64,000 bases of DNA, taken from NCBI GenBank assembly GCA_022711335.1, contig JAKLFF010000003.1:13508-77507 (forward strand), given 5' to 3'. Under the pieces are notes generated by a model. It saw only the letters and a list, made by a program, of their open reading frames with translations, made no database searches and was not told the origin of the DNA. The translations under genes and the position numbers were made by a program. Of the stretch, positions 20,566 through 64,000 are shown piece by piece. Every line of letters begins with the position of its first letter. Position 1 is the first letter of the stretch. This DNA comes from Patescibacteria group bacterium (GTDB lineage: Bacteria > Patescibacteriota > Minisyncoccia > Moranbacterales > UBA2206).

Positions 20566-21126
20566 TTATTTCATTATCTTTTCCATCATTTCATCCACCT
20601 GCCTTATCAATTCTTCCTGCGCTCCGCCGTTATCCAGCTTGAAATCAGCCTGTTTTCCAATTTCGTGAATGGAAATTTCAGTGAGCTTTCCTTCCTCCTC
20701 AAGAAATTGCTCCAAAGTAGTTTTATCCTCTCCGTCGTTCTGCTTTCTGAATCTGGTTCGATTATAGCGCACTTTTATGTCCGCTGTTACGTACACCAAA
20801 TAGAATTTGTTTCCATACTTTTTCCGAAAAGGCTCCACATCGCCGTGCATCCTTATACCGTCCGCTATGATTACATCTGACCCGTTCTTTTCCATGTCCT
20901 GTATCAGAGAGTCGATAATCACTGAAGGACCGTATCCCTCTTTAAGAACTAGAGCCAATTTAATCAAATTGTCCCGGGTAATTGGCAATCTCAAATCTTC
21001 AAGCGTTCTTCTTAAAATCTTGGAGGTTCCATAATGAACGGCGCCGTATTTTTCTTTGAGATGGTCAGAAACCGTGCCTTTCCCGGCACCTTTTTCGCCT
21101 ATTAAACCTATAACTATTTTTGCCAT
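20566..21126 (-). CDS. P-loop nucleotide kinase-like paralog
   Basis: GLIGEKGAGKGT Walker A. Track N-terminus (to 21165) is translated Family C repeat. True start MAKIV abuts the repeat. Confidence 0.45.
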   Translation of the reverse strand: MAKIVIGLIGEKGAGKGTVSDHLKEKYGAVHYGTSKILRRTLEDLRLPITRDNLIKLALVLKEGYGPSVIIDSLIQDMEKNGSDVIIADGIRMHGDVEPFRKKYGNKFYLVYVTADIKVRYNRTRFRKQNDGEDKTTLEQFLEEEGKLTEISIHEIGKQADFKLDNGGAQEELIRQVDEMMEKIMK

Positions 21127-21276
21127 TTTTGTCCGCGAGGCACGAGCGGCTACAAAAATAAGCATCCCGCACCAATTCTATAATCAAAATTTAATATTTC
21201 TTAAAAACTGAGCCGCAGGCGATTCCGTGGCAGAAGCTATGCGTTAAGCATTATTTCATTCGGAATTTGGTGCGGG
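21127..21276 (-). repeat. Family C ~150-nt element (5' module TTTTGTC.GCGAG..ACAAAAATRAG; 13-14-bp terminal inverted repeats CCCGCACCAATTC ... GAATTGGTGCGGG)
   Basis: Three copies, each filling a co-directional intergenic gap and ending at a start codon. Confidence 0.7.
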
Positions 21277-21358
21277 AAAAACACCCATTAATCCTATCAA
21301 ATAAAACTTGGCTGGTCAATATAAAAAGGCACTCGAAGCGCCTCTTTATTTTCCAACC

Positions 21359-22526: not shown

Positions 22527-22674
22527 GATTATAGAATATTGAATTTAGTATTTTGAATTTTGAATGGAAATAATGAATATAGAATCGCGATTTCTCTCTT
22601 TTTAATCGACTATATTCAAAATTCTATATTCCTATTCTAAATTCGCAATTCACAATTCTAAATTCAGTAATAAA
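22527..22674. repeat. Family B palindromic AT-rich element (GAATTT/AAATTC units)
   Basis: A 55-nt segment is near-identical to 26945-26998. Confidence 0.55.
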
Positions 22675-23559: not shown

Positions 23560-23632
23560 GGGCTCATAGCTCAGTTGGTAGAGCGCCTCGTTTGCACCGA
23601 GGAGGCCAGGAGTTCGAATCTCCTTGAGTCCA
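23560..23632 (+). tRNA. tRNA-Ala (anticodon TGC), G3:U70 identity pair, no encoded CCA
   Basis: Full cloverleaf folded by hand. Confidence 0.9.
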
Positions 23633-23635
23633 CAT

Positions 23636-23712
23636 GGGCGTATAGCTCAGTTGGTTAGAGCGCGTCACTGATAATGACGAGGTCTCTGGTTCGAGTCCAG
23701 ATACGCCCACCA
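23636..23712 (+). tRNA. tRNA-Ile (anticodon GAT), CCA encoded
   Basis: Full cloverleaf folded by hand. Confidence 0.9.
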
Positions 23713-26870: not shown

Positions 26871-26994
26871 GAAATAAGAATCTTGAATTTAGTATTTAGA
26901 ATTTTGAATCAGAATCAAGAACAAAAGAATCAAGATTTTCTATATTCAAAATTCCATATTCCTATTCTAAATTCCAAATTCACAATTCTAAATT
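26871..26994. repeat. Family B palindromic element
   Basis: Near-identical to B1. Confidence 0.55.
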
Positions 26995-27987
26995 CTACTT
27001 ACCATTAATATACTCCGCCAACTCCACCAGCCTATTGGAGTATCCCCATTCATTATCATACCACCCGACCACTTTCGCTAAATTTCCATTAACCATAGTC
27101 AAAGGCAAATCGACAATTGCGCTGTGCATATCGCCCTTAAAATCCATTGAAACCAAGCTTTCATCGCTCACTGCCAGCACGCCCTTCATTTCATTTTGCG
27201 AAAATTCTTTGAAAGCAGCGTTGATTTCTTCCGCAGTTGCCTCCTTTTTAAGCGTGCAGATAAAATCCGCGATTGAAACCACCGGAGTTGGAACGCGGAG
27301 TGAAATGCCATCCAATTTTCCTTCCAGGTGCTTTATCACTTTTCCAACGGTCTTGGCTGCACCAGTGGTTGTTGGGATAATATTCAAAGCTGCTGCCCGA
27401 GCACGTCTTAGATCTTTATGCGGTAAATCGAGCACTCGCTGATCGTTAGTATAGGAATGGGTCGTGGTCATGAAACCTTTTTCCACGCCGAATTTGTCAT
27501 CGAGCACTTTTATCATCGGTGCCAGACAATTGGTCGTGCATGAACCGTTGGAAATAATTTCTTCTCCGTCATATTCATTCTCATTAACTCCGAGAAGAAA
27601 AACCGGCGTGTCGTCTTTGGCGGGAGCACTGAGAACAACCTTCTTCGCGCCGGCTTTTATGTGCTTCCCCGCTTTTTCCTTGTCTTCAAAGACTCCGGTG
27701 CATTCCAAAACCACATCTACGCCAAGCTTCTTCCAGGGCAATTTTTCCGGATCAGGTTCAGACAGAAATTTAATCCGCGTTCCATCAATAATCAATTCGG
27801 AATTTTTATCATCGATTGCCACGTCTTTATCATATCTTCCATAAGATGAATCGTATTTCAAAAGATGCGCGGCAGTTTTGAGATCCCCAAGGTCATTTAT
27901 AGCTACTACTTCCATGTTTTCATTTGCAAAAGCGATTTTCAGCGACGGCCTCCCGATGCGCCCAAATCCATTAATAGCAATTTTCAT
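26995..27987 (-). CDS. gap: glyceraldehyde-3-phosphate dehydrogenase
   Basis: NGFGRIGR and SCTTNC motifs. Confidence 0.95.
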   Translation of the reverse strand: MKIAINGFGRIGRPSLKIAFANENMEVVAINDLGDLKTAAHLLKYDSSYGRYDKDVAIDDKNSELIIDGTRIKFLSEPDPEKLPWKKLGVDVVLECTGVFEDKEKAGKHIKAGAKKVVLSAPAKDDTPVFLLGVNENEYDGEEIISNGSCTTNCLAPMIKVLDDKFGVEKGFMTTTHSYTNDQRVLDLPHKDLRRARAAALNIIPTTTGAAKTVGKVIKHLEGKLDGISLRVPTPVVSIADFICTLKKEATAEEINAAFKEFSQNEMKGVLAVSDESLVSMDFKGDMHSAIVDLPLTMVNGNLAKVVGWYDNEWGYSNRLVELAEYINGK

Positions 27988-28069: not shown

Positions 28070-28342
28070 TTATACTGCTATATCCGTTATTTTCCAATGA
28101 TCGCCTTTAATTTTACTGATTTCAAACTTCGTATTTTCAAAAACAGTCCCTTTGGCGATGCTTTTTAGACCAAATTGAAGATTTTCAAGGCTTATATCCT
28201 CAGTATGTTCTGGATGGCCATCATGAGCTAGGCTTATACTTCCAATTTCAATACTAACACTTTTTGGCTTATTAAAGCCTTCTTCTTGAGATATTTTCTT
28301 AAGCTCGTCGATAATTTCTTTGGCTAAAAAAAAGTCATGCAT
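28070..28342 (-). CDS. HypA-like hydrogenase nickel-insertion protein lacking the C-terminal zinc finger
   Basis: MHD start and the HypA N-domain pattern, but no Cys. Track ORF extends to 28378 through Family C repeat. Confidence 0.45.
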   Translation of the reverse strand: MHDFFLAKEIIDELKKISQEEGFNKPKSVSIEIGSISLAHDGHPEHTEDISLENLQFGLKSIAKGTVFENTKFEISKIKGDHWKITDIAV

Positions 28343-28346
28343 GCCA

Positions 28347-28498
28347 TTTTTGTCTACGAGCGAAGCGAGTAGCCACAAAAATGAGCACCCCGCACCAATT
28401 CGAAGATGAATTTTAGGTTAATTATATTTTAAGCCGAAGGTGACGACGCACACAATACTCTGCGTTAAGCCTAAACCCAGCCGGAATTGGTGCCGGGG
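28347..28498 (-). repeat. Family C element
   Basis: See copy at 21127-21276. Confidence 0.7.
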
Positions 28499-28508
28499 TC
28501 AAAACTTT

Positions 28509-36035: not shown

Positions 36036-36085
36036 ATAAAACATATGCTTTTTTGTTGCATGTTATATGTTTCATGTTCTATGAT
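36036..36085. repeat. Family A palindromic element (CATATAACAT/ATGTTATATG units)
   Basis: One of 8 copies. Confidence 0.6.
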
Positions 36086-36952: not shown

Positions 36953-37056
36953 AAAAATAGAATTTTGAATTTGGAATTTGGAATTTTGAATAAGAATTAA
37001 GAATAATGAACCTGGATCATAATATTCTAAATTCTATATTATTCCCATTCTAAATT
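36953..37056. repeat. Family B palindromic element
   Basis: Similar arms to B1 and B2. Confidence 0.5.
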
Positions 37057-38520: not shown

Positions 38521-38618
38521 CTTCATGAAACATATAACATGCAACATAAAACAATTATTTTAAGAAAAGCTCCATCTGTTGTTATATGTTATATGCCGTA
38601 TGTTGTATGTTATATGCT
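38521..38618. repeat. Family A palindromic element, abuts the dedA ATG
   Basis: Arms of 8-10-nt units. Central AACAATTATTTTAAG shared with A3. Confidence 0.65.
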
Positions 38619-39620
38619 TCTTAGATATTCCGCCGCATCTTCCGGCCGAATTGTTGAAATCTCAATCCCGGTTGACATTTCCAGTCCCGCCCAGGTGGAT
38701 GTATGCGGGATTATTTCAATATGCCAATGATAATGCGGATAGTCCCGCCCATCGCAGGGCGAAGTATGGACATAAAAATTGTAAGCGGGATCTTTGAGGC
38801 CCTTAAAAATTTTAAAAATAGCTTTCTGCAGAGCCTCACCTGCTTTCACTTTGCTCTCAACCGGCGTCCTTTCGAAATAAGGCTTGTGTTTTTTGGGAAT
38901 AACCCAGGTTTCGAAAGCCATCCTTGAAGCAAACGGACAAAAAACCAGAAATTCATCATTTTCGAAAACAATTCTTTTTCGCTGCTCTGTCTCCCAGTCT
39001 ATCATCGTGCAATAAACACATTTTCTATTTGTTCTATAATAATTTTCCGCGCCGGTAAGCTCCAGGTTTATATAGGGAGATATGACCGGAATAGCTACCA
39101 GCTGCGAATGAGGATGAGAAATTGATGCGCCAGCTTCCACGCCGTGATTATGAAAAATTTCGATAAAATTAACGCTTTTTTTGTTCATAAGGCTGATGTA
39201 GCGGTCCTGATAAGCGTCGAAAATTTCCGCCACCTGATATCCGTCCAGCTCGGCAATCTGCTTTTTATGATCGCGAGTAACAACAATCTCATGGTAGCCG
39301 ACTCCGTCCATCATAAAATAAGGACCCTCTTCAATGTGCTTCACGCGGGCGCCTCTGGAGAAAGCCGGATATTTATTGGGAATAACCCGGAGCGTCCACT
39401 CTCCCTCGGAATTTTGGTACATAAGAACATCTTTTTCCTGCCCGGTTTTTTCCGGACAGCAAAAGAAACACAGCTTGTCCGGATTCTCTTTCATTTCCTG
39501 CCTACCATGTTCGGAAAATTCTTTCGGCCTCTTAGACCTTCCGGTCGCAATTACTACCCAGTCTCCAGTCACCAAATCTTGTCGAAGTTCTGAAATTTTA
39601 TTTTTATTTGTCTCTTCCAT
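38610..39620 (-). CDS. galactose-1-phosphate uridylyltransferase-like (HIT family, HPHSQ)
   Basis: Two half-site HIT motifs. Track ORF to 39680 is translated Family C repeat. True start MEET abuts the repeat. Confidence 0.6.
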   Translation of the reverse strand: MEETNKNKISELRQDLVTGDWVVIATGRSKRPKEFSEHGRQEMKENPDKLCFFCCPEKTGQEKDVLMYQNSEGEWTLRVIPNKYPAFSRGARVKHIEEGPYFMMDGVGYHEIVVTRDHKKQIAELDGYQVAEIFDAYQDRYISLMNKKSVNFIEIFHNHGVEAGASISHPHSQLVAIPVISPYINLELTGAENYYRTNRKCVYCTMIDWETEQRKRIVFENDEFLVFCPFASRMAFETWVIPKKHKPYFERTPVESKVKAGEALQKAIFKIFKGLKDPAYNFYVHTSPCDGRDYPHYHWHIEIIPHTSTWAGLEMSTGIEISTIRPEDAAEYLRSI

Positions 39621-39771
39621 TTTTGTCTGCGAGCGAAGCGAGCAGGTACAAAAATGAGAACCCCGCACCAATTCACTCAAAAGACTTTTTTTATTTTTAA
39701 ATTTAAGCCGTTAGGCGACCACACGCATAAAACTATGCCTGAGTAAAATTAAATTTGGAATTGGTGCGGGG
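39621..39771 (-). repeat. Family C element
   Basis: See copy at 21127-21276. Confidence 0.7.
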
Positions 39772-39785
39772 CAACTTAACAACTT

Positions 39786-40589: not shown

Positions 40590-40710
40590 TCATGAAACAT
40601 GGAACATAAAGCATATAACATAAAACATAGAACATATAACATGAAACAATTATTTTAAGGGAAACTCCGTCTTGTTGCTATATGCTATATGTTTTATGTT
40701 CTATGATTTA
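40590..40710. repeat. Family A palindromic element
   Basis: Shares the central spacer with A2. Confidence 0.65.
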
Positions 40711-41632: not shown

Positions 41633-41676
41633 GAATTTTGATTTGTCATTTTGACTTTTGATTTTTGAATTTTGAA

Positions 41677-43094: not shown

Positions 43095-43163
43095 GAAACA
43101 TGGAACATGGAACATGGAACAATTTTATATTTTTGTTTCATGTTATATGTTTTATGTTATATG
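43095..43163. repeat. Family A palindromic element between secY and adk
   Basis: CATGGAACAT x3 and ATGTTATATG arms. Confidence 0.65.
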
Positions 43164-49969: not shown

Positions 49970-50024
49970 AGTTCATATCGCATGTATCATATATATGTTA
50001 TATGTTTTATGCTATATGTTATAT
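49970..50024. repeat. Family A element between rplV and rpsC
   Basis: ATGTTATATG units. Abuts the rpsC ATG and the rplV stop. Confidence 0.6.
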
Positions 50025-53462: not shown

Positions 53463-53638
53463 AACTCAAAGAGAGCTTGTTTTTCTCTACTGGCTAGTTG
53501 AGTATCCGCAAATAGACACAGACGAGGCGGACTTTAACTAGAATTACAAATTTCTGCGAATTTCAGCGAATGAAGTTATGAATATTTATTTATAACTTCA
53601 TTCGCCTTAATTTGCAACCATTCGCAACTACTACATTA
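53463..53638. repeat. Family H element with a perfect 14-bp hairpin (GCGAATGAAGTTAT / ATAACTTCATTCGC) between rpsJ and rplC
   Basis: Plus TTCTGCGAATTTCAGCGAATG repeats. Confidence 0.5.
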
Positions 53639-58250: not shown

Positions 58251-58392
58251 AAGTTTTTAGTTTTTTGTGTATAATTTAAAAAACGAATTTCTAATTTTGA
58301 ATTTTGAAATAATGCCTTAATTTCGAATGTTTTAAACATTTTACCATTCAAAATTGATTCGAAATTCAAAATTCCAAATTCAAAATTCGATA

Positions 58393-60224: not shown

Positions 60225-60307
60225 GGCCATGGAACATGTAGCATACAACATGTAACAGAATTTTCTCTGTTTTTGTTTTTTGTCATATGTTTCATGTTAT
60301 ATGTCAT
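60225..60307. repeat. Family A element in the divergent region, abutting the rpmB ATG
   Basis: CATGGAACATG..ATGTTTCATGTTATATGTCATATG. Confidence 0.6.
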
Positions 60308-62246: not shown

Positions 62247-62358
62247 AACTTTATATAACATATAACATGAAACGTATAGCATTTCATCCAATATGTTTGA
62301 AAAAATTAATTTTTAATTATATCTTCATGTTCCACATTATCTGCTATATGCTACATGA
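62247..62358. repeat. Family A element
   Basis: Fills the rodZ-recA gap. Confidence 0.6.
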
Positions 62359-63363
62359 TTAGTATTTGGTGTCCCTATTAAATACTACGCCTCTCACTGC
62401 TCCCGGATCTTGCCCAAGCGTTCCAATATCCTTGCCATTAAATTTAACATAGGTGGCGTTAGCTCGTCCAGAATTTATAACGATTTTATCCCCGGCACGG
62501 AAGCTCTGAACCGCTCCTGACAGCATTGTTCCTGAAAAAACCAGATTTTCATCGGCCTCAACCGAAAGCCAAACTGGACCTGGGTCAACTTTTATCTCAA
62601 TTTGAATTTCGTTCAATTCAGCCAAAACTGACTCCTCTTTTGATCCATCCTGGCCGCCTTGCGCCGTATCTTCCTTAAAGTTAGACCGGATTGACAGAGA
62701 GCTTAGCGTTTCTTTTCCGAACTTATTTATCGCTTTCATATTCAGAGCATTGATCCCGGATTGCAGAGTGATATTTTCGGAGAATTTTCCATCATCTCCA
62801 ACCAAAATCGGCTGATCGTTCACAAAAACTCGAACATCTTTATCAGTAACCCCCTCTACGCGCAAGCTATTTCCATCCACCGAAGTGTCCGGCTGTGGAT
62901 TGAGGATAATAAGCCGCGGAGCATCGGTAAACGACCCAATTTCCTTGTATAAATAAAATAATCCGGAAAATATCAAAATTGCGATTAACGACATAGCTAT
63001 TTTTTGGGGAGTAAAAACAAAGGAAGAAATGTTAATCGGTTTTTGAACAGATTTTTCAGCTTGCGGATTTTTGCTTTCTTCGAGATTTTTTTTAATCCCC
63101 TTCTCCTTCTCGTACAGCTTTATAAGCACATTCCCGTCTACTCCTAAAAAATCCGCATAGCTTCGAAGAAATCCTCTCACATAAACATCAGCTGGAAGCT
63201 TATCCCATCTGCCTTCTTCGAGATATTCAAGATAAGCAATTTGAATTTTTGTAATTCTGGAAACTTCGTTGAGAGCCATCCTTTTTCCATTTCTAAGCTG
63301 CCTCAGCTTTTCCCCCAGTGTTAGCGTTCCAACTCTCTTTTTTGTAAAACTGTTTCTAAGCAT
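62359..63363 (-). CDS. rodZ: RodZ-like (HTH plus TM plus C-terminal DUF4115-like)
   Basis: HTH LGEKLRQLR...YVRGFLRSYA. Confidence 0.7.
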   Translation of the reverse strand: MLRNSFTKKRVGTLTLGEKLRQLRNGKRMALNEVSRITKIQIAYLEYLEEGRWDKLPADVYVRGFLRSYADFLGVDGNVLIKLYEKEKGIKKNLEESKNPQAEKSVQKPINISSFVFTPQKIAMSLIAILIFSGLFYLYKEIGSFTDAPRLIILNPQPDTSVDGNSLRVEGVTDKDVRVFVNDQPILVGDDGKFSENITLQSGINALNMKAINKFGKETLSSLSIRSNFKEDTAQGGQDGSKEESVLAELNEIQIEIKVDPGPVWLSVEADENLVFSGTMLSGAVQSFRAGDKIVINSGRANATYVKFNGKDIGTLGQDPGAVRGVVFNRDTKY

Positions 63364-63464
63364 AAAACATGAAGCATATAACATGAAACATATAACAAGG
63401 TACACCAGCATAAATGTTTCACTCTATGCTAAATGTTATATGTTATATGTTTCATGTTTTATGT
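63364..63464. repeat. Family A element
   Basis: Fills the ftsK-rodZ gap. Confidence 0.6.
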
Positions 63465-64000
63465 TTATATTTGCCATTTGTCCCTCTTTTCCTGATCTTC
63501 TGTTGTATTCTCGTAATTTGTTTCTTCCGGATTGCCATTCGCATAAACTTCTCTCGGTTTGGCGCCATCAGCCGGACCAACTATTCCTTTATCTTCCAAG
63601 ACATCCAGGAGCCGAGCCGCCCGGGCATAACCAACGCGAAGACGGCGCTGGAGGAGAGAAGCGGAAGCTTTTTTAGCCCTGATCACTTCTTCTTTTGCCG
63701 CTTCGAAAAGCTCGTCTTCCTGATCATTGCTTGCCGCATTACTTTCAAACTTCAAAAGGCTCGTTTTCATTTCTCCAATAATATTTTCTTCTTTTTCAGA
63801 GTCTTTTACTTTTTGCTCTTTTATGAATTTTACCACTCTTTTCACTTCTGATTCGCTTACCAAAGCGCCCTGGATTCTTTTTGGTTTTGGAGAAGCTGCA
63901 GAAAGGTACAACAGATCACCATTCCCTAAAAGCTTCTCTGCTCCAGCCATGTCGAGGATAGTCCTTGAATCAATTTGGGTCGCCACTTGAAAGGCCACTC
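63465..64000 (-). CDS. ftsK: FtsK/SpoIIIE C-terminus including gamma winged-helix domain (partial, continues beyond the window)
   Basis: SASLLQRRLRVGYARAARLLDVLE gamma-domain motif. Confidence 0.75.
   Translation of the reverse strand, partial: VAFQVATQIDSRTILDMAGAEKLLGNGDLLYLSAASPKPKRIQGALVSESEVKRVVKFIKEQKVKDSEKEENIIGEMKTSLLKFESNAASNDQEDELFEAAKEEVIRAKKASASLLQRRLRVGYARAARLLDVLEDKGIVGPADGAKPREVYANGNPEETNYENTTEDQEKRDKWQI

What the first reader, a model, noticed from the sequence alone, without database searches (positions are those of the whole stretch)
21127..21276. Family C: three ~150-nt elements with 13-14-bp terminal inverted repeats, each filling an intergenic gap and ending exactly at the downstream start codon
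The copies are at 21127-21276, 28347-28498 and 39621-39771, all oriented with the minus-strand genes. Each begins, in gene orientation, with a long stem (CCCCGCACCAAUUC ... GAAUUGGUGCGGGG) around a ~85-nt interior. Next comes a U-rich tract (CUCAUUUUUGU) and a conserved 25-nt segment (CCUGCUCGCUUCGCUCGCAGACAAAA) that ends at the ATG of three unrelated genes (a P-loop kinase, the HypA-like gene and the galT-like gene). The interiors differ in sequence but share sub-motifs (AAGCCGnAGGnGAC, CTGCGTTAAGC). The layout suggests a portable terminator-plus-5'UTR/promoter cassette or a cis-regulatory leader. The ORF track reads through the elements (MLIFVAARASRTK, MWLLASLVDKNG, MSELVRGSHFCTCSLRSQTK).
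Basis: partly seen in the sequence, partly recalled or inferred. Interest (0 to 1): 0.75.

Follow-up and report, generated by a model that had tools for sequence, protein, structure and literature searches.

The report
Structured leader repeat enclosing start codons
The three elements belong to a previously undescribed, many-copy, ~160-nt folded RNA module of Moranbacteria-type (CPR) bacteria that sits just before genes, many of them for ribosomal proteins, and holds their start codon inside a conserved helix; it most likely controls translation start in genomes that largely lack Shine-Dalgarno sites.

Summary
A covariance model finds exactly three copies in the window (minus strand, 21121-21277, 28342-28498, 39615-39771).

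It also finds about 140 further distinct copies in roughly 40 Moranbacteria/Parcubacteria assemblies and in metagenomes. There is no Rfam match and I found no paper describing it.

The "U-rich tract" and the "conserved 25-nt segment" are the two strands of one hairpin, P4. Its 3' strand is ACAAAA-AUG-GCA, that is, the start codon plus three more bases.

P4 abuts a 14-15-bp long-range helix, P1. P1 closes a junction holding a variable hairpin (P2), a 3-bp helix (P3) and a 22-35-nt linker that is 84% A/U.

Both P1 and P4 covary strongly, including the start codon and the second codon. All copies whose downstream gene could be identified are sense to it. In 86% the gene starts inside P4 or at its last base.

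The element lies between cistrons, even inside the spc ribosomal operon, or just downstream of promoter-like sites. It is therefore transcribed whole. It is neither a terminator nor a promoter cassette.

Best reading (about 0.45): a portable cis-acting module that gates translation initiation and spreads or homogenises like a MITE. Rivals are a selfish DNA-level repeat and an RNA processing or stability element.

The parts
21121..21277 (-). Copy c1, whole element (P1 5' strand to the last base of P4), between the L1 gene and a P-loop kinase gene
   Evidence: CM hit of 140.7 bits, E 6e-30. The MFE fold is P1+P4, z -2.85. Coordinates.
21263..21277 (-). c1 P1 5' strand, UCCCGCACCAAAUUC (one bulged A)
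   Evidence: covariation
21221..21262 (-). c1 P2 region (variable hairpin plus the conserved CGGAAUC junction)
21212..21220 (-). c1 P3, GCC-UGC-GGC
   Evidence: G-C to C-G flips in divergent copies
21179..21211 (-). c1 A/U-rich linker, predicted to be mostly single-stranded
   Evidence: Family-wide the linker is 84% A/U and 22-35 nt long. Coordinates.
21165..21178 (-). c1 P1 3' strand, GAAUUGGUGCGGGA
21121..21164 (-). c1 hairpin P4. The 5' strand is UGCUUAUUUUUGU, the apical stem-loop spans 21133-21151, and the 3' strand is ACAAAAAUGGCA (21121-21132). The kinase start codon is at 21126-21124.
   Evidence: The ORF MAKIVIGLIGEKGAGKG starts at this AUG.
21291..21319 (-). Promoter-like site TTGACC-17-TAGGAT (TG-extended) directly upstream of c1. 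It may be the site from which c1 is transcribed as a 5'UTR.
   Evidence: a consensus match only
28342..28498 (-). Copy c2, whole element, 10 nt after the desulfoferrodoxin stop codon and ending at the first base of the HypA-like start codon
   Evidence: CM hit of 112.8 bits, E 1e-23; fold z -3.77
28484..28498 (-). c2 P1 5' strand, CCCCGGCACCAAUUC (bulged G)
28388..28401 (-). c2 P1 3' strand, GAAUUGGUGCGGGG
28342..28387 (-). c2 hairpin P4. Its internal AUG (28347-28345) opens a 7-codon out-of-frame ORF. The real HypA-like start, AUG 28342-28340, begins at the last paired base.
39615..39771 (-). Copy c3, whole element, 14 nt after the GT2 stop codon; the GalT-like gene starts at AUG 39620-39618 inside P4
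   Evidence: CM hit of 162.6 bits, E 6e-35; fold z -5.65
39758..39771 (-). c3 P1 5' strand, CCCCGCACCAAUUC (perfect, no bulge)
39661..39674 (-). c3 P1 3' strand, GAAUUGGUGCGGGG
39615..39660 (-). c3 hairpin P4. The second codon is GAA rather than GCA, and the 5' strand carries the matching G-to-U change (UUCUCAU...AUGGAA).

Best explanation
Family C is a lineage-specific, multi-copy, ~157-nt structured RNA module. It is transcribed as part of the mRNA, either in an intercistronic spacer or in a 5'UTR.

It folds into a strong long-range helix, P1 (14-15 bp, about -25 kcal/mol). P1 closes a three-way junction made of a variable hairpin (P2), a 3-bp helix (P3) with conserved flanks (CGGAAUCGCC-loop-GGCUUAG), and a 22-35-nt linker that is 84% A/U. 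With no spacer after P1 comes hairpin P4 (about -13 kcal/mol). The 3' strand of P4 is the downstream gene's A-rich initiation region, its start codon and the next three bases (ACAAAA-AUG-GCA).

Most likely the module acts in cis on translation initiation of the downstream cistron, in a genome that mostly lacks Shine-Dalgarno sites. It carries a ready-made initiation region but keeps the AUG paired, so that ribosome entry is gated. Candidates for opening the gate are a common trans-acting factor (for example S1 or another RNA-binding protein using the A/U platform), or the ribosome that terminates on the upstream cistron, since P1 brings that stop codon and the start codon together. This would put many ribosomal-protein and growth genes under one shared control.

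The family multiplies and homogenises like a MITE, by duplicative insertion or by gene conversion.

Shown here: the structure and its covariation, the position relative to start and stop codons and to promoter-like sites, the orientation, the copy number and the taxonomic range. Inferred: that the RNA rather than the DNA is the functional form, that the effect is on translation, and the identity of whatever opens P4.
For: (1) Structure under selection. On 99 copies from genome assemblies, 96.7% of cells are paired and 23 of 33 pairs show compensatory changes. None of 500 shuffles reaches this, and slid controls give 35-52% paired. In an independent metagenome set anchored on the junction motif, and so unbiased for P1 and P4, 12 of 14 P1 pairs and 15 of 16 P4 pairs show compensatory changes, with 96% paired.

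(2) The covariation includes coding bases. The terminal P4 pair is U-A with GCA and C-G with GCG. Window copy c3 has GAA with a matching U. The AUG triplet changes to UUG, AUU, AUC or AAG with matching changes on the other strand. In L139 the HypA-like start becomes GUG where the pair is C-G.

(3) Tight coupling to start codons. Of 142 distinct copies, the long ORF starts at the P4 AUG in 92 and at the last base of P4 in 30. All 122 of these are sense to their gene. Two copies 1.3 kb apart on opposite strands of L062 each face their own gene, S7 and L28. Orientation therefore follows the gene and not replication direction.

(4) The P4 triplet behaves like a usable start. When the true start lies at +5, the P4 triplet is non-AUG in 15 of 30 copies, against 0 of 92 when it is the gene's own start. 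Where AUG is kept, the uORFs are short, and five are AUG-GCA-UGA overlapping the real AUG.

(5) The whole element is transcribed. It lies between cistrons of the spc operon. The median distance from the upstream stop codon to P1 is 17 nt. At operon starts, strong promoter-like sites lie 6-170 nt upstream of the element, and none lies at a fixed place inside it.

(6) SD-poor setting. Most window genes have A/T-rich, SD-free upstream regions. A published survey detected the anti-SD motif in only 48% of Parcubacteria (PMC9297842).

(7) Downstream genes include many for ribosomal proteins and other housekeeping functions. Pfam confirms S14 x7, S7 x4, L20, L27, L11, L10, L3, SecY, MreB, an EPSP_synthase-family (MurA-like) protein, DnaJ and NusB. 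GroEL, EF-Ts, EF-G, IF-1 and NusG were identified only from their N-terminal sequences. No comparison with gene frequencies in these genomes was made.

(8) The same genes carry the element in several species, with compensatory differences between them (S14, L11, L3, the MurA-like gene, the kinase and the HypA-like gene).
Against: There are no transcript or structure-probing data.

Wobble statistics do not favour the sense RNA. Outside two apical pairs, G-U counts are 17-22 and A-C counts 24-32, whereas a typical RNA family shows many more G-U than A-C.

The helices are conserved in sequence, not only in pairing. The 'variable' interior can be 100% identical between different loci in different species (L062:1773 versus L075). 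Both patterns fit recently spread DNA repeats.

A -13 kcal/mol hairpin over the AUG should by itself repress genes that must be highly expressed.

Two copies are followed by a separate canonical SD plus AUG 19 nt downstream (L087:4474 and L144). A few copies lack P4 altogether (L113, L160, L001:5793), so the P1 domain can exist without the start-codon hairpin.

The window's own ribosomal operons lack the element entirely, so it is not essential for these genes.
Confidence: 0.45

Rival explanations
1. A selfish DNA repeat, MITE-like, REP-like or a small integrative element. On this reading the inverted repeats and hairpins serve transposition or recombination, as ssDNA or cruciform structures or as recombinase sites. 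The position at start codons reflects a target preference for ATGGC, which is the common Met-Ala gene start. Any effect on expression is incidental or merely tolerated.
For: - The element has 14-15-bp terminal inverted repeats, is small and has many copies per genome: at least 11 exact pattern hits in CAVZKT01 and at least 8 in JBAZPT01.
- Interiors can be identical or near-identical at different loci and in different species.
- Orthologous junctions show presence or absence: the window's spc operon is empty while that of L041 is filled.
- There are nested insertions, including a P1-type hairpin inside a P4 loop in L077.
- A start-like ATGGC lies in the left flank of 26 of 144 copies against a 0.5% background, which fits a duplicated core or target.
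- ATGGC is a frequent native gene start in the window.
- A-C mismatches are at least as common as G-U.
- P1-only relatives exist.
Against: - Every copy with an identifiable downstream gene is sense to it, and 86% touch the start codon. Known MITEs insert in both orientations.
- In L062 the orientation follows the gene on both strands, not the replication direction.
- Compensatory changes involve host coding bases at orthologous sites.
- The spacing between the left-flank ATGGC and P1 varies by 0-2 nt, and most copies lack that motif.
- No autonomous partner element was seen, and no copy was found in viral contigs.
Confidence: 0.25
2. An mRNA processing or stability element. The P1 helix, extended to about 21 bp in copies with the AUGGCUA left flank, or the stacked P1-P4 helix, would be cut by RNase III or a similar nuclease. 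Alternatively it would protect transcript ends. Either way long operon transcripts would be separated into independently stable and independently translated units.
For: - The element lies between cistrons in long ribosomal operons.
- P1 and P4 abut with no spacer, giving about 28 bp of stacked helix.
- In some copies the left flank pairs with GGGAUGCUCAU, extending P1.
- By analogy with Correia elements of Neisseria, whose inverted repeats are RNase III substrates (my own knowledge, not tested here).
Against: A processing role does not explain why the helix must include the start codon and the second codon, nor why the P4 AUG is lost in half of the +5 copies. Many copies sit in 5'UTRs with no upstream cistron to separate. 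No cleavage data exist.
Confidence: 0.15
3. One reading: a portable intrinsic terminator for the upstream gene, fused to a promoter and 5'UTR for the downstream gene.
For: P1 is G+C-rich at its base, and a U run follows a few bases later. The linker is A/T-rich and gives a weak 9-of-12 promoter-like match in c1.
Against: The U run is one strand of P4 and covaries away from U. It lies 6-7 nt from P1, whose loop is about 100 nt. Copies sit inside essential operons with no promoter after them. Fourteen of 15 strong promoter-like sites lie upstream of the whole element, and none lies at a fixed internal position.
Confidence: 0.05
4. A metabolite- or ion-sensing riboswitch, or an RNA thermometer. 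The P1-P2-P3 junction would be the sensor, and P4 would be a start-codon-sequestering expression platform.
For: The architecture resembles a translational riboswitch: a junction domain closed by P1, followed by a hairpin that sequesters the start codon. The lower stem of P4 is A-U-rich and so could melt, as in fourU thermometers. Some junction nucleotides are conserved.
Against: The downstream genes are functionally very diverse. The 'platform' and P1 are the most sequence-conserved parts, while the junction loops vary; this is the reverse of known riboswitches. There are dozens of copies per 1-Mb genome. No Rfam family matches.
Confidence: 0.07

Closest known systems
Bacterial MITE-type structured intergenic repeats (Correia/NEMIS elements of Neisseria, ERIC/IRU of enterobacteria, bcr1 of the Bacillus cereus group, RUP/BOX of pneumococcus)
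   Same: Size of about 100-200 nt, terminal inverted repeats that form a long stem in the transcript, tens of copies per genome, co-transcription with neighbouring genes, near-identical copies at different loci, and presence or absence at orthologous sites.
   Different: Family C copies are sense to the downstream gene wherever that gene could be identified. They end within or at its start codon and carry a second hairpin that covaries with coding bases. They are frequent before ribosomal-protein and other housekeeping genes. No clean target-site duplication and no autonomous partner element was found.
REP/BIME elements and their RAYT transposases
   Same: Dispersed palindromic repeats in transcribed intergenic regions. 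Their sequences are homogenised within a genome, and they can stabilise mRNA.
   Different: REPs are 20-40-nt single palindromes with a conserved GTAG end, usually lie 3' of genes and occur in either orientation. Family C is a ~157-nt multi-helix element placed 5' of genes. RAYT association was not tested.
Ribosomal-protein autoregulatory mRNA leaders (for example the L1, L10, L20, S8 and S15 leaders, and the SD-less structured rpsA leader bound by S1)
   Same: Structured RNA immediately upstream of ribosomal-protein cistrons that overlaps the initiation region. The rpsA leader likewise pairs hairpins with A/U-rich single strands in place of an SD site.
   Different: Known leaders are one per operon. 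Each is specific to one repressor protein and mimics an rRNA site, and they are not repeats. Here a single sequence family precedes dozens of different cistrons, including non-ribosomal genes.
Start-site-sequestering expression platforms: translational riboswitches and fourU/ROSE RNA thermometers
   Same: A U-rich strand pairs with the initiation region so that the start site is hidden in a hairpin of moderate stability.
   Different: The regulon is not coherent. The hairpin is the most conserved part, there is no SD site to hide, and there are many copies per genome.
Rickettsia palindromic elements (RPE)
   Same: Palindromic repeats of about 100-150 nt in a reduced genome. They have co-evolved with host genes and can contribute coding bases.
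   Different: RPEs insert in frame within ORFs and are translated as peptide segments. Family C stays upstream and contributes at most Met-Ala.
Ribosome shunt of the cauliflower mosaic virus 35S RNA leader (a functional analogy only)
   Same: An upstream ORF ends a few nucleotides before the base of a strong stem. The stem brings the take-off site and the landing site next to each other.
   Different: The shunt is a eukaryotic scanning mechanism. No evidence for shunting exists in bacteria or for this element.

Membership tests
MITE (miniature inverted-repeat transposable element) | Short, non-coding, with terminal inverted repeats | tested here: met
   About 157 nt with 14-15-bp inverted arms. 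The ORFs that read through it are artefacts.
MITE (miniature inverted-repeat transposable element) | Flanking target-site duplication | tested here: inconclusive
   ATGGC lies at the right end in most copies. It lies in the left flank in only 26 of 144 copies (background 0.5%), with 0-2 nt of variable spacing. Comparing empty and filled sites shows no clean duplication.
MITE (miniature inverted-repeat transposable element) | Multiple near-identical copies, with presence or absence at orthologous sites | tested here: met
   Interiors are 100% identical at different loci in two species. The spc-operon junctions are filled in L041 and empty in the window.
MITE (miniature inverted-repeat transposable element) | Insertion in either orientation, without a fixed relation to gene starts | tested here: not met
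   122 of 142 copies start the downstream ORF within or at the end of P4, and all of these are sense to the gene.
MITE (miniature inverted-repeat transposable element) | A cognate autonomous element or transposase with the same ends | not tested
   Only 2-14-kb pieces around the copies were available. None was seen in them, and no copy was found in viral contigs.
REP/BIME | A 20-40-nt imperfect palindrome with a conserved GTAG-type end, mostly 3' of genes | tested here: not met
   The element has four helices, spans about 157 nt and lies 5' of genes. GUAG in P4 is not conserved (GUAU, GUUC, GUGG and GCAG variants).
Intrinsic (rho-independent) terminator | A G+C-rich hairpin with a short loop, followed within 0-2 nt by a U run that is functionally required | tested here: not met
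   The P1 loop is about 100 nt, and the U run starts 6-7 nt after P1. The U run is paired in P4 and covaries to A-containing variants. Copies sit inside the spc operon. The scans give no consistent call.
Sigma-70 promoter cassette | -35 and -10 hexamers at a fixed position inside the element | tested here: not met
   Fourteen of 15 strong matches lie upstream of the element. The one internal match is in a copy with a long insertion. None recurs in the linker.
Any Rfam 15 family (riboswitches, ribozymes, leaders, sRNAs) | Score at or near the family's gathering threshold | tested here: not met
   Only two tRNAs pass the gathering threshold in the window. Permissive scans of c1 and c3 give nothing or noise, at most 16.5 bits.
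Riboswitch | A conserved ligand-binding core with a variable expression platform, upstream of functionally related genes | tested here: not met
   P1 and P4 are the most conserved parts, while P2 and the linker vary. The downstream genes span ribosomal proteins, chaperones, glycolysis, the cell wall, secretion and kinases.
Ribosomal-protein autoregulatory leader | Binding by a specific ribosomal protein through mimicry of its rRNA site | not testable with these tools
   Only the position upstream of ribosomal-protein cistrons could be shown.
Conserved structured RNA (generic) | Base pairs maintained by compensatory substitutions beyond shuffled and shifted controls | tested here: met
   (0 of 500 shuffles reach the observed values; slid controls 33-52% paired against 96-97%). 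Caveat: the copies are related repeats, and A-C is at least as common as G-U.

The most novel reading that the evidence does not exclude
One shared RNA structure acts as a genome-wide translational operator and as a portable initiation site. A mobile cassette supplies an SD-independent start region (A-rich tract, AUG, GCA) locked in a helix. It has been placed in front of dozens of ribosomal-protein and growth genes. A single factor, or coupling to the upstream terminating ribosome through P1, would then set the output of the whole translation apparatus. That would be a bacterial counterpart of the eukaryotic 5'TOP regulon, assembled by a transposable element in a reduced CPR genome.
Probability: 0.22. 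Interest if true: 0.9.

Novelty: new variant of a known kind. Interest (0 to 1): 0.78.

Why it matters
CPR/Patescibacteria are a large, uncultured part of bacterial diversity with tiny genomes, few known regulators and, in many lineages, weak or absent Shine-Dalgarno use. How they select start codons and balance ribosomal-protein output is unknown.

This element is abundant and well defined, with strong covariation support. It physically encloses start codons, including those between cistrons of the ribosomal-protein operons. It therefore offers a concrete, testable handle on SD-independent initiation and on global control of translation in these organisms.

It is also an unusually clear case of a repeat family co-evolving with the first codons of host genes. 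On the practical side, it explains wrong N-terminal extensions in public gene calls. It also provides a covariance model that marks true start codons in these genomes.

Tried and rejected
- Rfam, at gathering thresholds and in permissive mode: no family matches.
- tRNA or tmRNA-like element: ARAGORN finds only the two tRNAs at 23560-23712.
- Integron attC site: an RYYYAAC-like GCTTAAC occurs in c1 and c2 only, there is no inverse core, and the flanking genes are housekeeping. Rejected.
- Hammerhead, twister, pistol or hatchet ribozyme cores: not present by eye, and Rfam is negative.
- Pairing of GGCU (3' side of P3) with AGCY in P4: no covariation. Dropped.
- Complementarity of conserved loops to the anti-SD or SD sequence: none is convincing. 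The apical internal loop of P4 (CUCG...CUCG) is pyrimidine-rich and unexplained.
- RNAalifold on a plain MAFFT alignment of 55 copies missed P1, because the single bulged base shifts position. This was solved by building the model from six bulge-free copies.
- P1 extension by the left flank (AUGGCUA pairing with UGCUCAU) as a conserved switch. The motif is enriched, but its spacing varies by 0-2 nt and its covariation with the U/C position is weak (3 copies fit, 7 do not). It is left as unexplained.
- Viral contigs: one chance pattern match that is not a copy.
- Literature searches on Moranbacteria, Patescibacteria and CPR combined with structured RNA, RNA motif or MITE, and on start-codon sequestering repeats, found nothing relevant. 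One paper gave useful background on SD and anti-SD loss in Parcubacteria.
- P2 as a thermodynamically significant hairpin: only weak support (mean z -0.8). The topology recurs but the stem is A/U-rich.
Full report

Yes. Read on the minus strand, the three stretches align over about 165 nt at 79% mean column identity. The ends are nearly invariant and the interiors diverge.

I built a covariance model from six bulge-free family members. It finds exactly three copies in the 64-kb window:
- 39615-39778, 162.6 bits
- 21121-21284, 140.7 bits
- 28342-28505, 112.8 bits

The only other hits are weak echoes of the palindromic arms on the opposite strand. Each copy folds much better than dinucleotide shuffles, with z = -2.9, -3.8 and -5.7. 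The minimum-energy fold contains the same two helices in all three. Pfam confirms the neighbours: L1 then a P-loop kinase; desulfoferrodoxin then a HypA-like protein (just under the Pfam cut-off); GT2 then a GalT-like protein.

**2. What the anatomy really is**

It reads 5'-UGC(U)CAUUUUUGU, then a short apical stem-loop, then ACAAAAAUG-GCA-3'. The structure therefore does not stop at the start codon. It contains the AUG and the next three bases (coordinates).

P4 follows the 3' strand of the long-range helix P1 with no spacer. P1 pairs (U/C)CCCGCACCAAUUC with GAAUUGGUGCGGG(A/G) over 14-15 bp, often with one bulged base at a varying position.

P1 encloses three things:
- a variable A/U-rich hairpin region, P2;
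- a 3-bp helix, P3 (GCC-loop-GGC), with conserved flanks CGGAAUC...CUUAG;
- a 22-35-nt linker of 46% A and 38% U.

P1 is strong (duplex about -25 kcal/mol). P4 is moderate (about -13 kcal/mol).

In c2 the P4 AUG is not the gene's start. It opens a 7-codon out-of-frame ORF, and the HypA-like ORF begins at 28342, the last paired base of P4.

**3. The family outside the window**

An exact-pattern scan of one genome per species returned 96 loci. About 80 are true copies, nearly all in assemblies labelled Candidatus Moranbacteria/Moraniibacteriota, Parcubacteria or Patescibacteria. Several copies occur per genome: at least 11 exact pattern matches in CAVZKT01 and at least 8 in JBAZPT01.

The model then found 99 copies in those loci, including many that the pattern had missed. 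Examples are four copies in a 4.9-kb spc-operon contig and five in one 8-kb locus.

A second, independent scan of metagenome contigs was anchored on the junction motif, so it is unbiased for P1 and P4. It gave 65 loci and 66 more copies.

One viral-contig pattern match is not a copy. Rfam has no matching family, and five literature searches found no description. Contigs carrying an identical L1 protein show that the window's organism recurs in several metagenomes.

**4. Covariation**

| Set | Cells paired | Pairs with compensatory change | Shuffles reaching this | Slid controls paired |
|---|---|---|---|---|
| 99 copies from genomes | 96.7% | 23 of 33 | 0 of 500 | 35-52% |
| Independent metagenome set | 96.0% | P1 12 of 14; P4 15 of 16 | 0 of 500 | 33-50% |

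The changes reach into coding sequence:
- The terminal P4 pair is U-A when the second codon is GCA and C-G when it is GCG.
- Window copy c3 has GAA, with the matching G-to-U change on the other strand.
- The AUG triplet itself becomes UUG, AUU, AUC or AAG with matching changes opposite.
- In L139 the HypA-like start is GUG exactly where the terminal pair is C-G.
- P1 shows double compensations, such as CCCGCAUCAGUUCC with GAACUGAUGUGGG, and CCCAGUAUCAAUUCC with GAAUUGAUACGGG.

Two caveats apply. The copies are related repeats, so counts are not independent events. And G-U pairs (17-22) are no more frequent than A-C mismatches (24-32) outside two apical pairs that carry many A-C. The wobble test therefore does not identify the sense RNA as the selected strand.

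**5. Position and orientation**

I classified 142 distinct copies by where the downstream long ORF begins.

| Where the ORF starts | Copies | P4 triplet |
|---|---|---|
| At the P4 AUG | 92 | AUG in all 92 |
| At the last base of P4 (...GGC-AUG) | 30 | AUG in 15, non-AUG in 15 |
| Other | 20 | mixed |

The 20 'other' cases are contig ends, one-base alignment shifts at EF-G starts, two copies followed by a canonical SD plus AUG 19 nt downstream, and degenerate copies.

In the +5 class, the retained AUGs open uORFs of 2-31 codons. Five of these are AUG-GCA-UGA, which overlaps the true AUG. Loss of an out-of-frame AUG in half of the copies, with the helix preserved, is what one expects if ribosomes can start at that triplet.

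The upstream gene's stop codon lies a median of 17 nt before P1, and 66% lie within 30 nt.

All 122 copies in the first two classes are sense to their downstream gene. In L062 two copies 1.3 kb apart lie on opposite strands, each facing its own gene, S7 and L28. Orientation therefore tracks the gene and not replication direction.

**6. Is it transcribed whole?**

In L041 the element sits at four junctions of the spc operon: L24|L14, L5|S14, S14|S8 and S5|L15. It begins 1-20 nt after the upstream stop codon. A terminator there would be lethal.

Where the element starts an operon, strong sigma-70-like sites lie just upstream of it: TTGACA-17-TATTAT in L001, TTGACG-17-TATATT in L058, and TTGACA-18-TATAAT in L007. 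Fourteen of 15 strong matches lie 6-170 nt upstream. The fifteenth is inside L064, a divergent copy with a long insertion. None recurs in the linker. Window copy c1 has such a site at 21319-21291.

The U run covaries away from U, so it is conserved as a helix strand and not as a terminator tail.

**7. Setting**

The window genome is SD-poor. Most of its roughly 70 genes have A/T-rich upstream regions ending in runs such as 'aaaaaATG', and only a handful have GGAGG. A published survey detected the anti-SD motif in only 48% of Parcubacteria and reports shortened S1 proteins in CPR bacteria (PMC9297842).

Downstream genes include many for ribosomal proteins and other housekeeping functions. Pfam confirms S14 x7, S7 x4, L20, L27, L11, L10, L3, SecY, MreB, an EPSP_synthase-family (MurA-like) protein, DnaJ and NusB. 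I identified further ribosomal proteins (S3, S8, S12, S13, L4, L14, L15, L24, L28, L36) and GroEL, NusG, EF-Ts, EF-G, IF-1, GAPDH, aldolase and pyruvate kinase only from their N-terminal sequences. I did not compare these frequencies with a genome background.

**8. Repeat dynamics**

Orthologous placement is conserved across species for S14, L11, L3, the MurA-like gene, the kinase of c1 and the HypA-like gene of c2.

The 'variable' interior, however, is often most similar between different genes. It is 100% identical between L062:1773 (upstream of S7, assembly JBAZPT01) and L075 (upstream of aldolase, assembly CAVZKT01). Several copies within one contig are 84-91% alike.

The window's own spc, S10 and str operons have none. 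G+C-rich hairpins are nested in the loops of P2, P3 or P4, and a P1-type hairpin sits inside a P4 loop. P1-only relatives exist (L001:5793, L002:705, L046:478).

A start-like ATGGC occurs in the left flank of 26 of 144 copies, against a 0.5% background, but its spacing varies. These are the dynamics of a mobile or gene-converting repeat.

**9. Interpretation**

Firmly shown: family C is a conserved multi-helix element, sense-oriented wherever its downstream gene could be identified and transcribed whole, whose last helix encloses or touches the start codon.

My preferred explanation (about 0.45) is a portable, cis-acting module that gates translation initiation in an SD-poor lineage. It carries an A-rich initiation region with AUG-GCA but keeps it paired, next to a displayed A/U platform. 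P1 also places the upstream stop codon beside the start codon. Opening by a shared factor or by upstream termination is inferred, not shown.

The main rival (about 0.25) is a selfish DNA-level repeat with an ATGGC target preference. It explains the repeat dynamics and the wobble statistics. It does not explain the strict sense orientation, the coupling to start codons on both strands in L062, or the compensatory changes in host codons.

A processing or stability role (about 0.15) and a sensor role (about 0.07) remain possible. The terminator-plus-promoter reading is largely excluded (about 0.05).

**10. Novelty**

The nearest known things are MITE-type structured repeats (Correia, ERIC, bcr1, BOX) on one side, and start-site-sequestering leaders on the other (ribosomal-protein leaders, the SD-less rpsA leader, fourU thermometers).

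None of them combines a dispersed repeat with strict sense orientation, inclusion of the start codon in a covarying helix, and placement between ribosomal-protein cistrons. I rate it a new variant of a known kind, with a realistic chance that it is something more.

Noticed in passing
window 36059-36085, 38529-38618, 40610-40700, 43097-43158, 49994-50020, 60240-60305, 62257-62269, 63359-63465: A second repeat family: arrays of the heptad AACATA(N), often as inverted pairs of arrays, in many intergenic gaps and running into the 5' ends of called ORFs. This produces odd N-termini such as [12 protein letters not shown] and MFHVPCFMN. There are 27 matches against 1.5 expected.
   Followed up: partly
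window 22532-22564, 26883-26997, 36958-36990, 41651-41676, 58283-58390: A third repeat family: A/T-rich 7-nt periodic arrays (TTCAAAATTCnAAATnCnAAATTCAA), partly as inverted pairs, just upstream of L11, EF-G, aldolase and other genes. There are 11 matches against 0 expected. They may be promoter or UP-like elements, or another leader family.
   Followed up: partly
window 53555-53605 (minus strand), in the gap upstream of the L3 gene (the preceding ORF was not identified): A near-perfect ~40-nt palindrome, GCGAATGAAGTTATAAATAAATATTCATAACTTCATTCGC, followed by a further G+C-rich segment in a 215-nt gap inside the ribosomal operon. It is not related to family C.
   Followed up: no
window 23560-23712 (+): A tRNA-Ala(UGC) and tRNA-Ile(GAU) pair on the plus strand, opposite to almost all neighbouring genes. 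The order is Ala then Ile, with no rRNA gene nearby.
   Followed up: no
window 20566-21165; L098, L099 and L101 versus L100: Public gene calls for the kinase disagree, at 199 aa versus 186 aa. The longer call reads through the element from a spurious upstream start.
   Followed up: yes
left flank of many copies, e.g. L031:301-307, L057, L063, L140:305, L145: A start-like ATGGC (often ATGGCTA) lies 0-2 nt upstream of the P1 5' strand in 18% of copies, about 36 times the background. In S14-upstream copies it overlaps the L5 stop codon (TGATGGC). It may be a relic of the original start, a duplicated core, or a competing partner for the UGCUCAU strand.
   Followed up: partly
L024, L068, L076, L096:897, L121:7489, L127 (P4 loop); L005:4850, L007, L008, L044 (P3 loop); L040, L046 (P2): G+C-rich hairpins of about 25-45 nt, such as CCCGCCTCGACTCGC...GCGAGGCGGG and CTCGCCTCG...CGAAGCGGG, are nested in the loops of family C copies. 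They look like a separate small palindromic insertion family.
   Followed up: no
L001:5793-5956, L002:705-819, L046:478-617, L077:2415-2516, L113, L160: Relatives exist that have P1-type arms (CCCGCAC...GUGCGGG) but no P4. One lies directly before a consensus promoter (TTGACA-17-TATTAT) and one is inserted inside the P4 loop of another copy. The P1 domain therefore seems to be an independent module.
   Followed up: partly
P4 apical stem, e.g. window 21133-21151, 28354-28374, 39627-39647: The apical part of P4 has a recurrent pyrimidine internal loop (CUCG...CUCG) and frequent A-C oppositions at two positions (CUAC...GCAG and CUGC...ACAG). Some subfamilies replace the whole tip with a perfect 6-7-bp stem. 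This is unexplained and may be a protein-recognition site.
   Followed up: partly
L087:4474-4660 and L144:894-1075: Two copies have a non-AUG P4 triplet (UUG, AUU) and are followed by a textbook SD (AAGGAGGUG) with an AUG 19 nt downstream. These organisms can therefore use SD sites, and the element is not always the initiation site.
   Followed up: no
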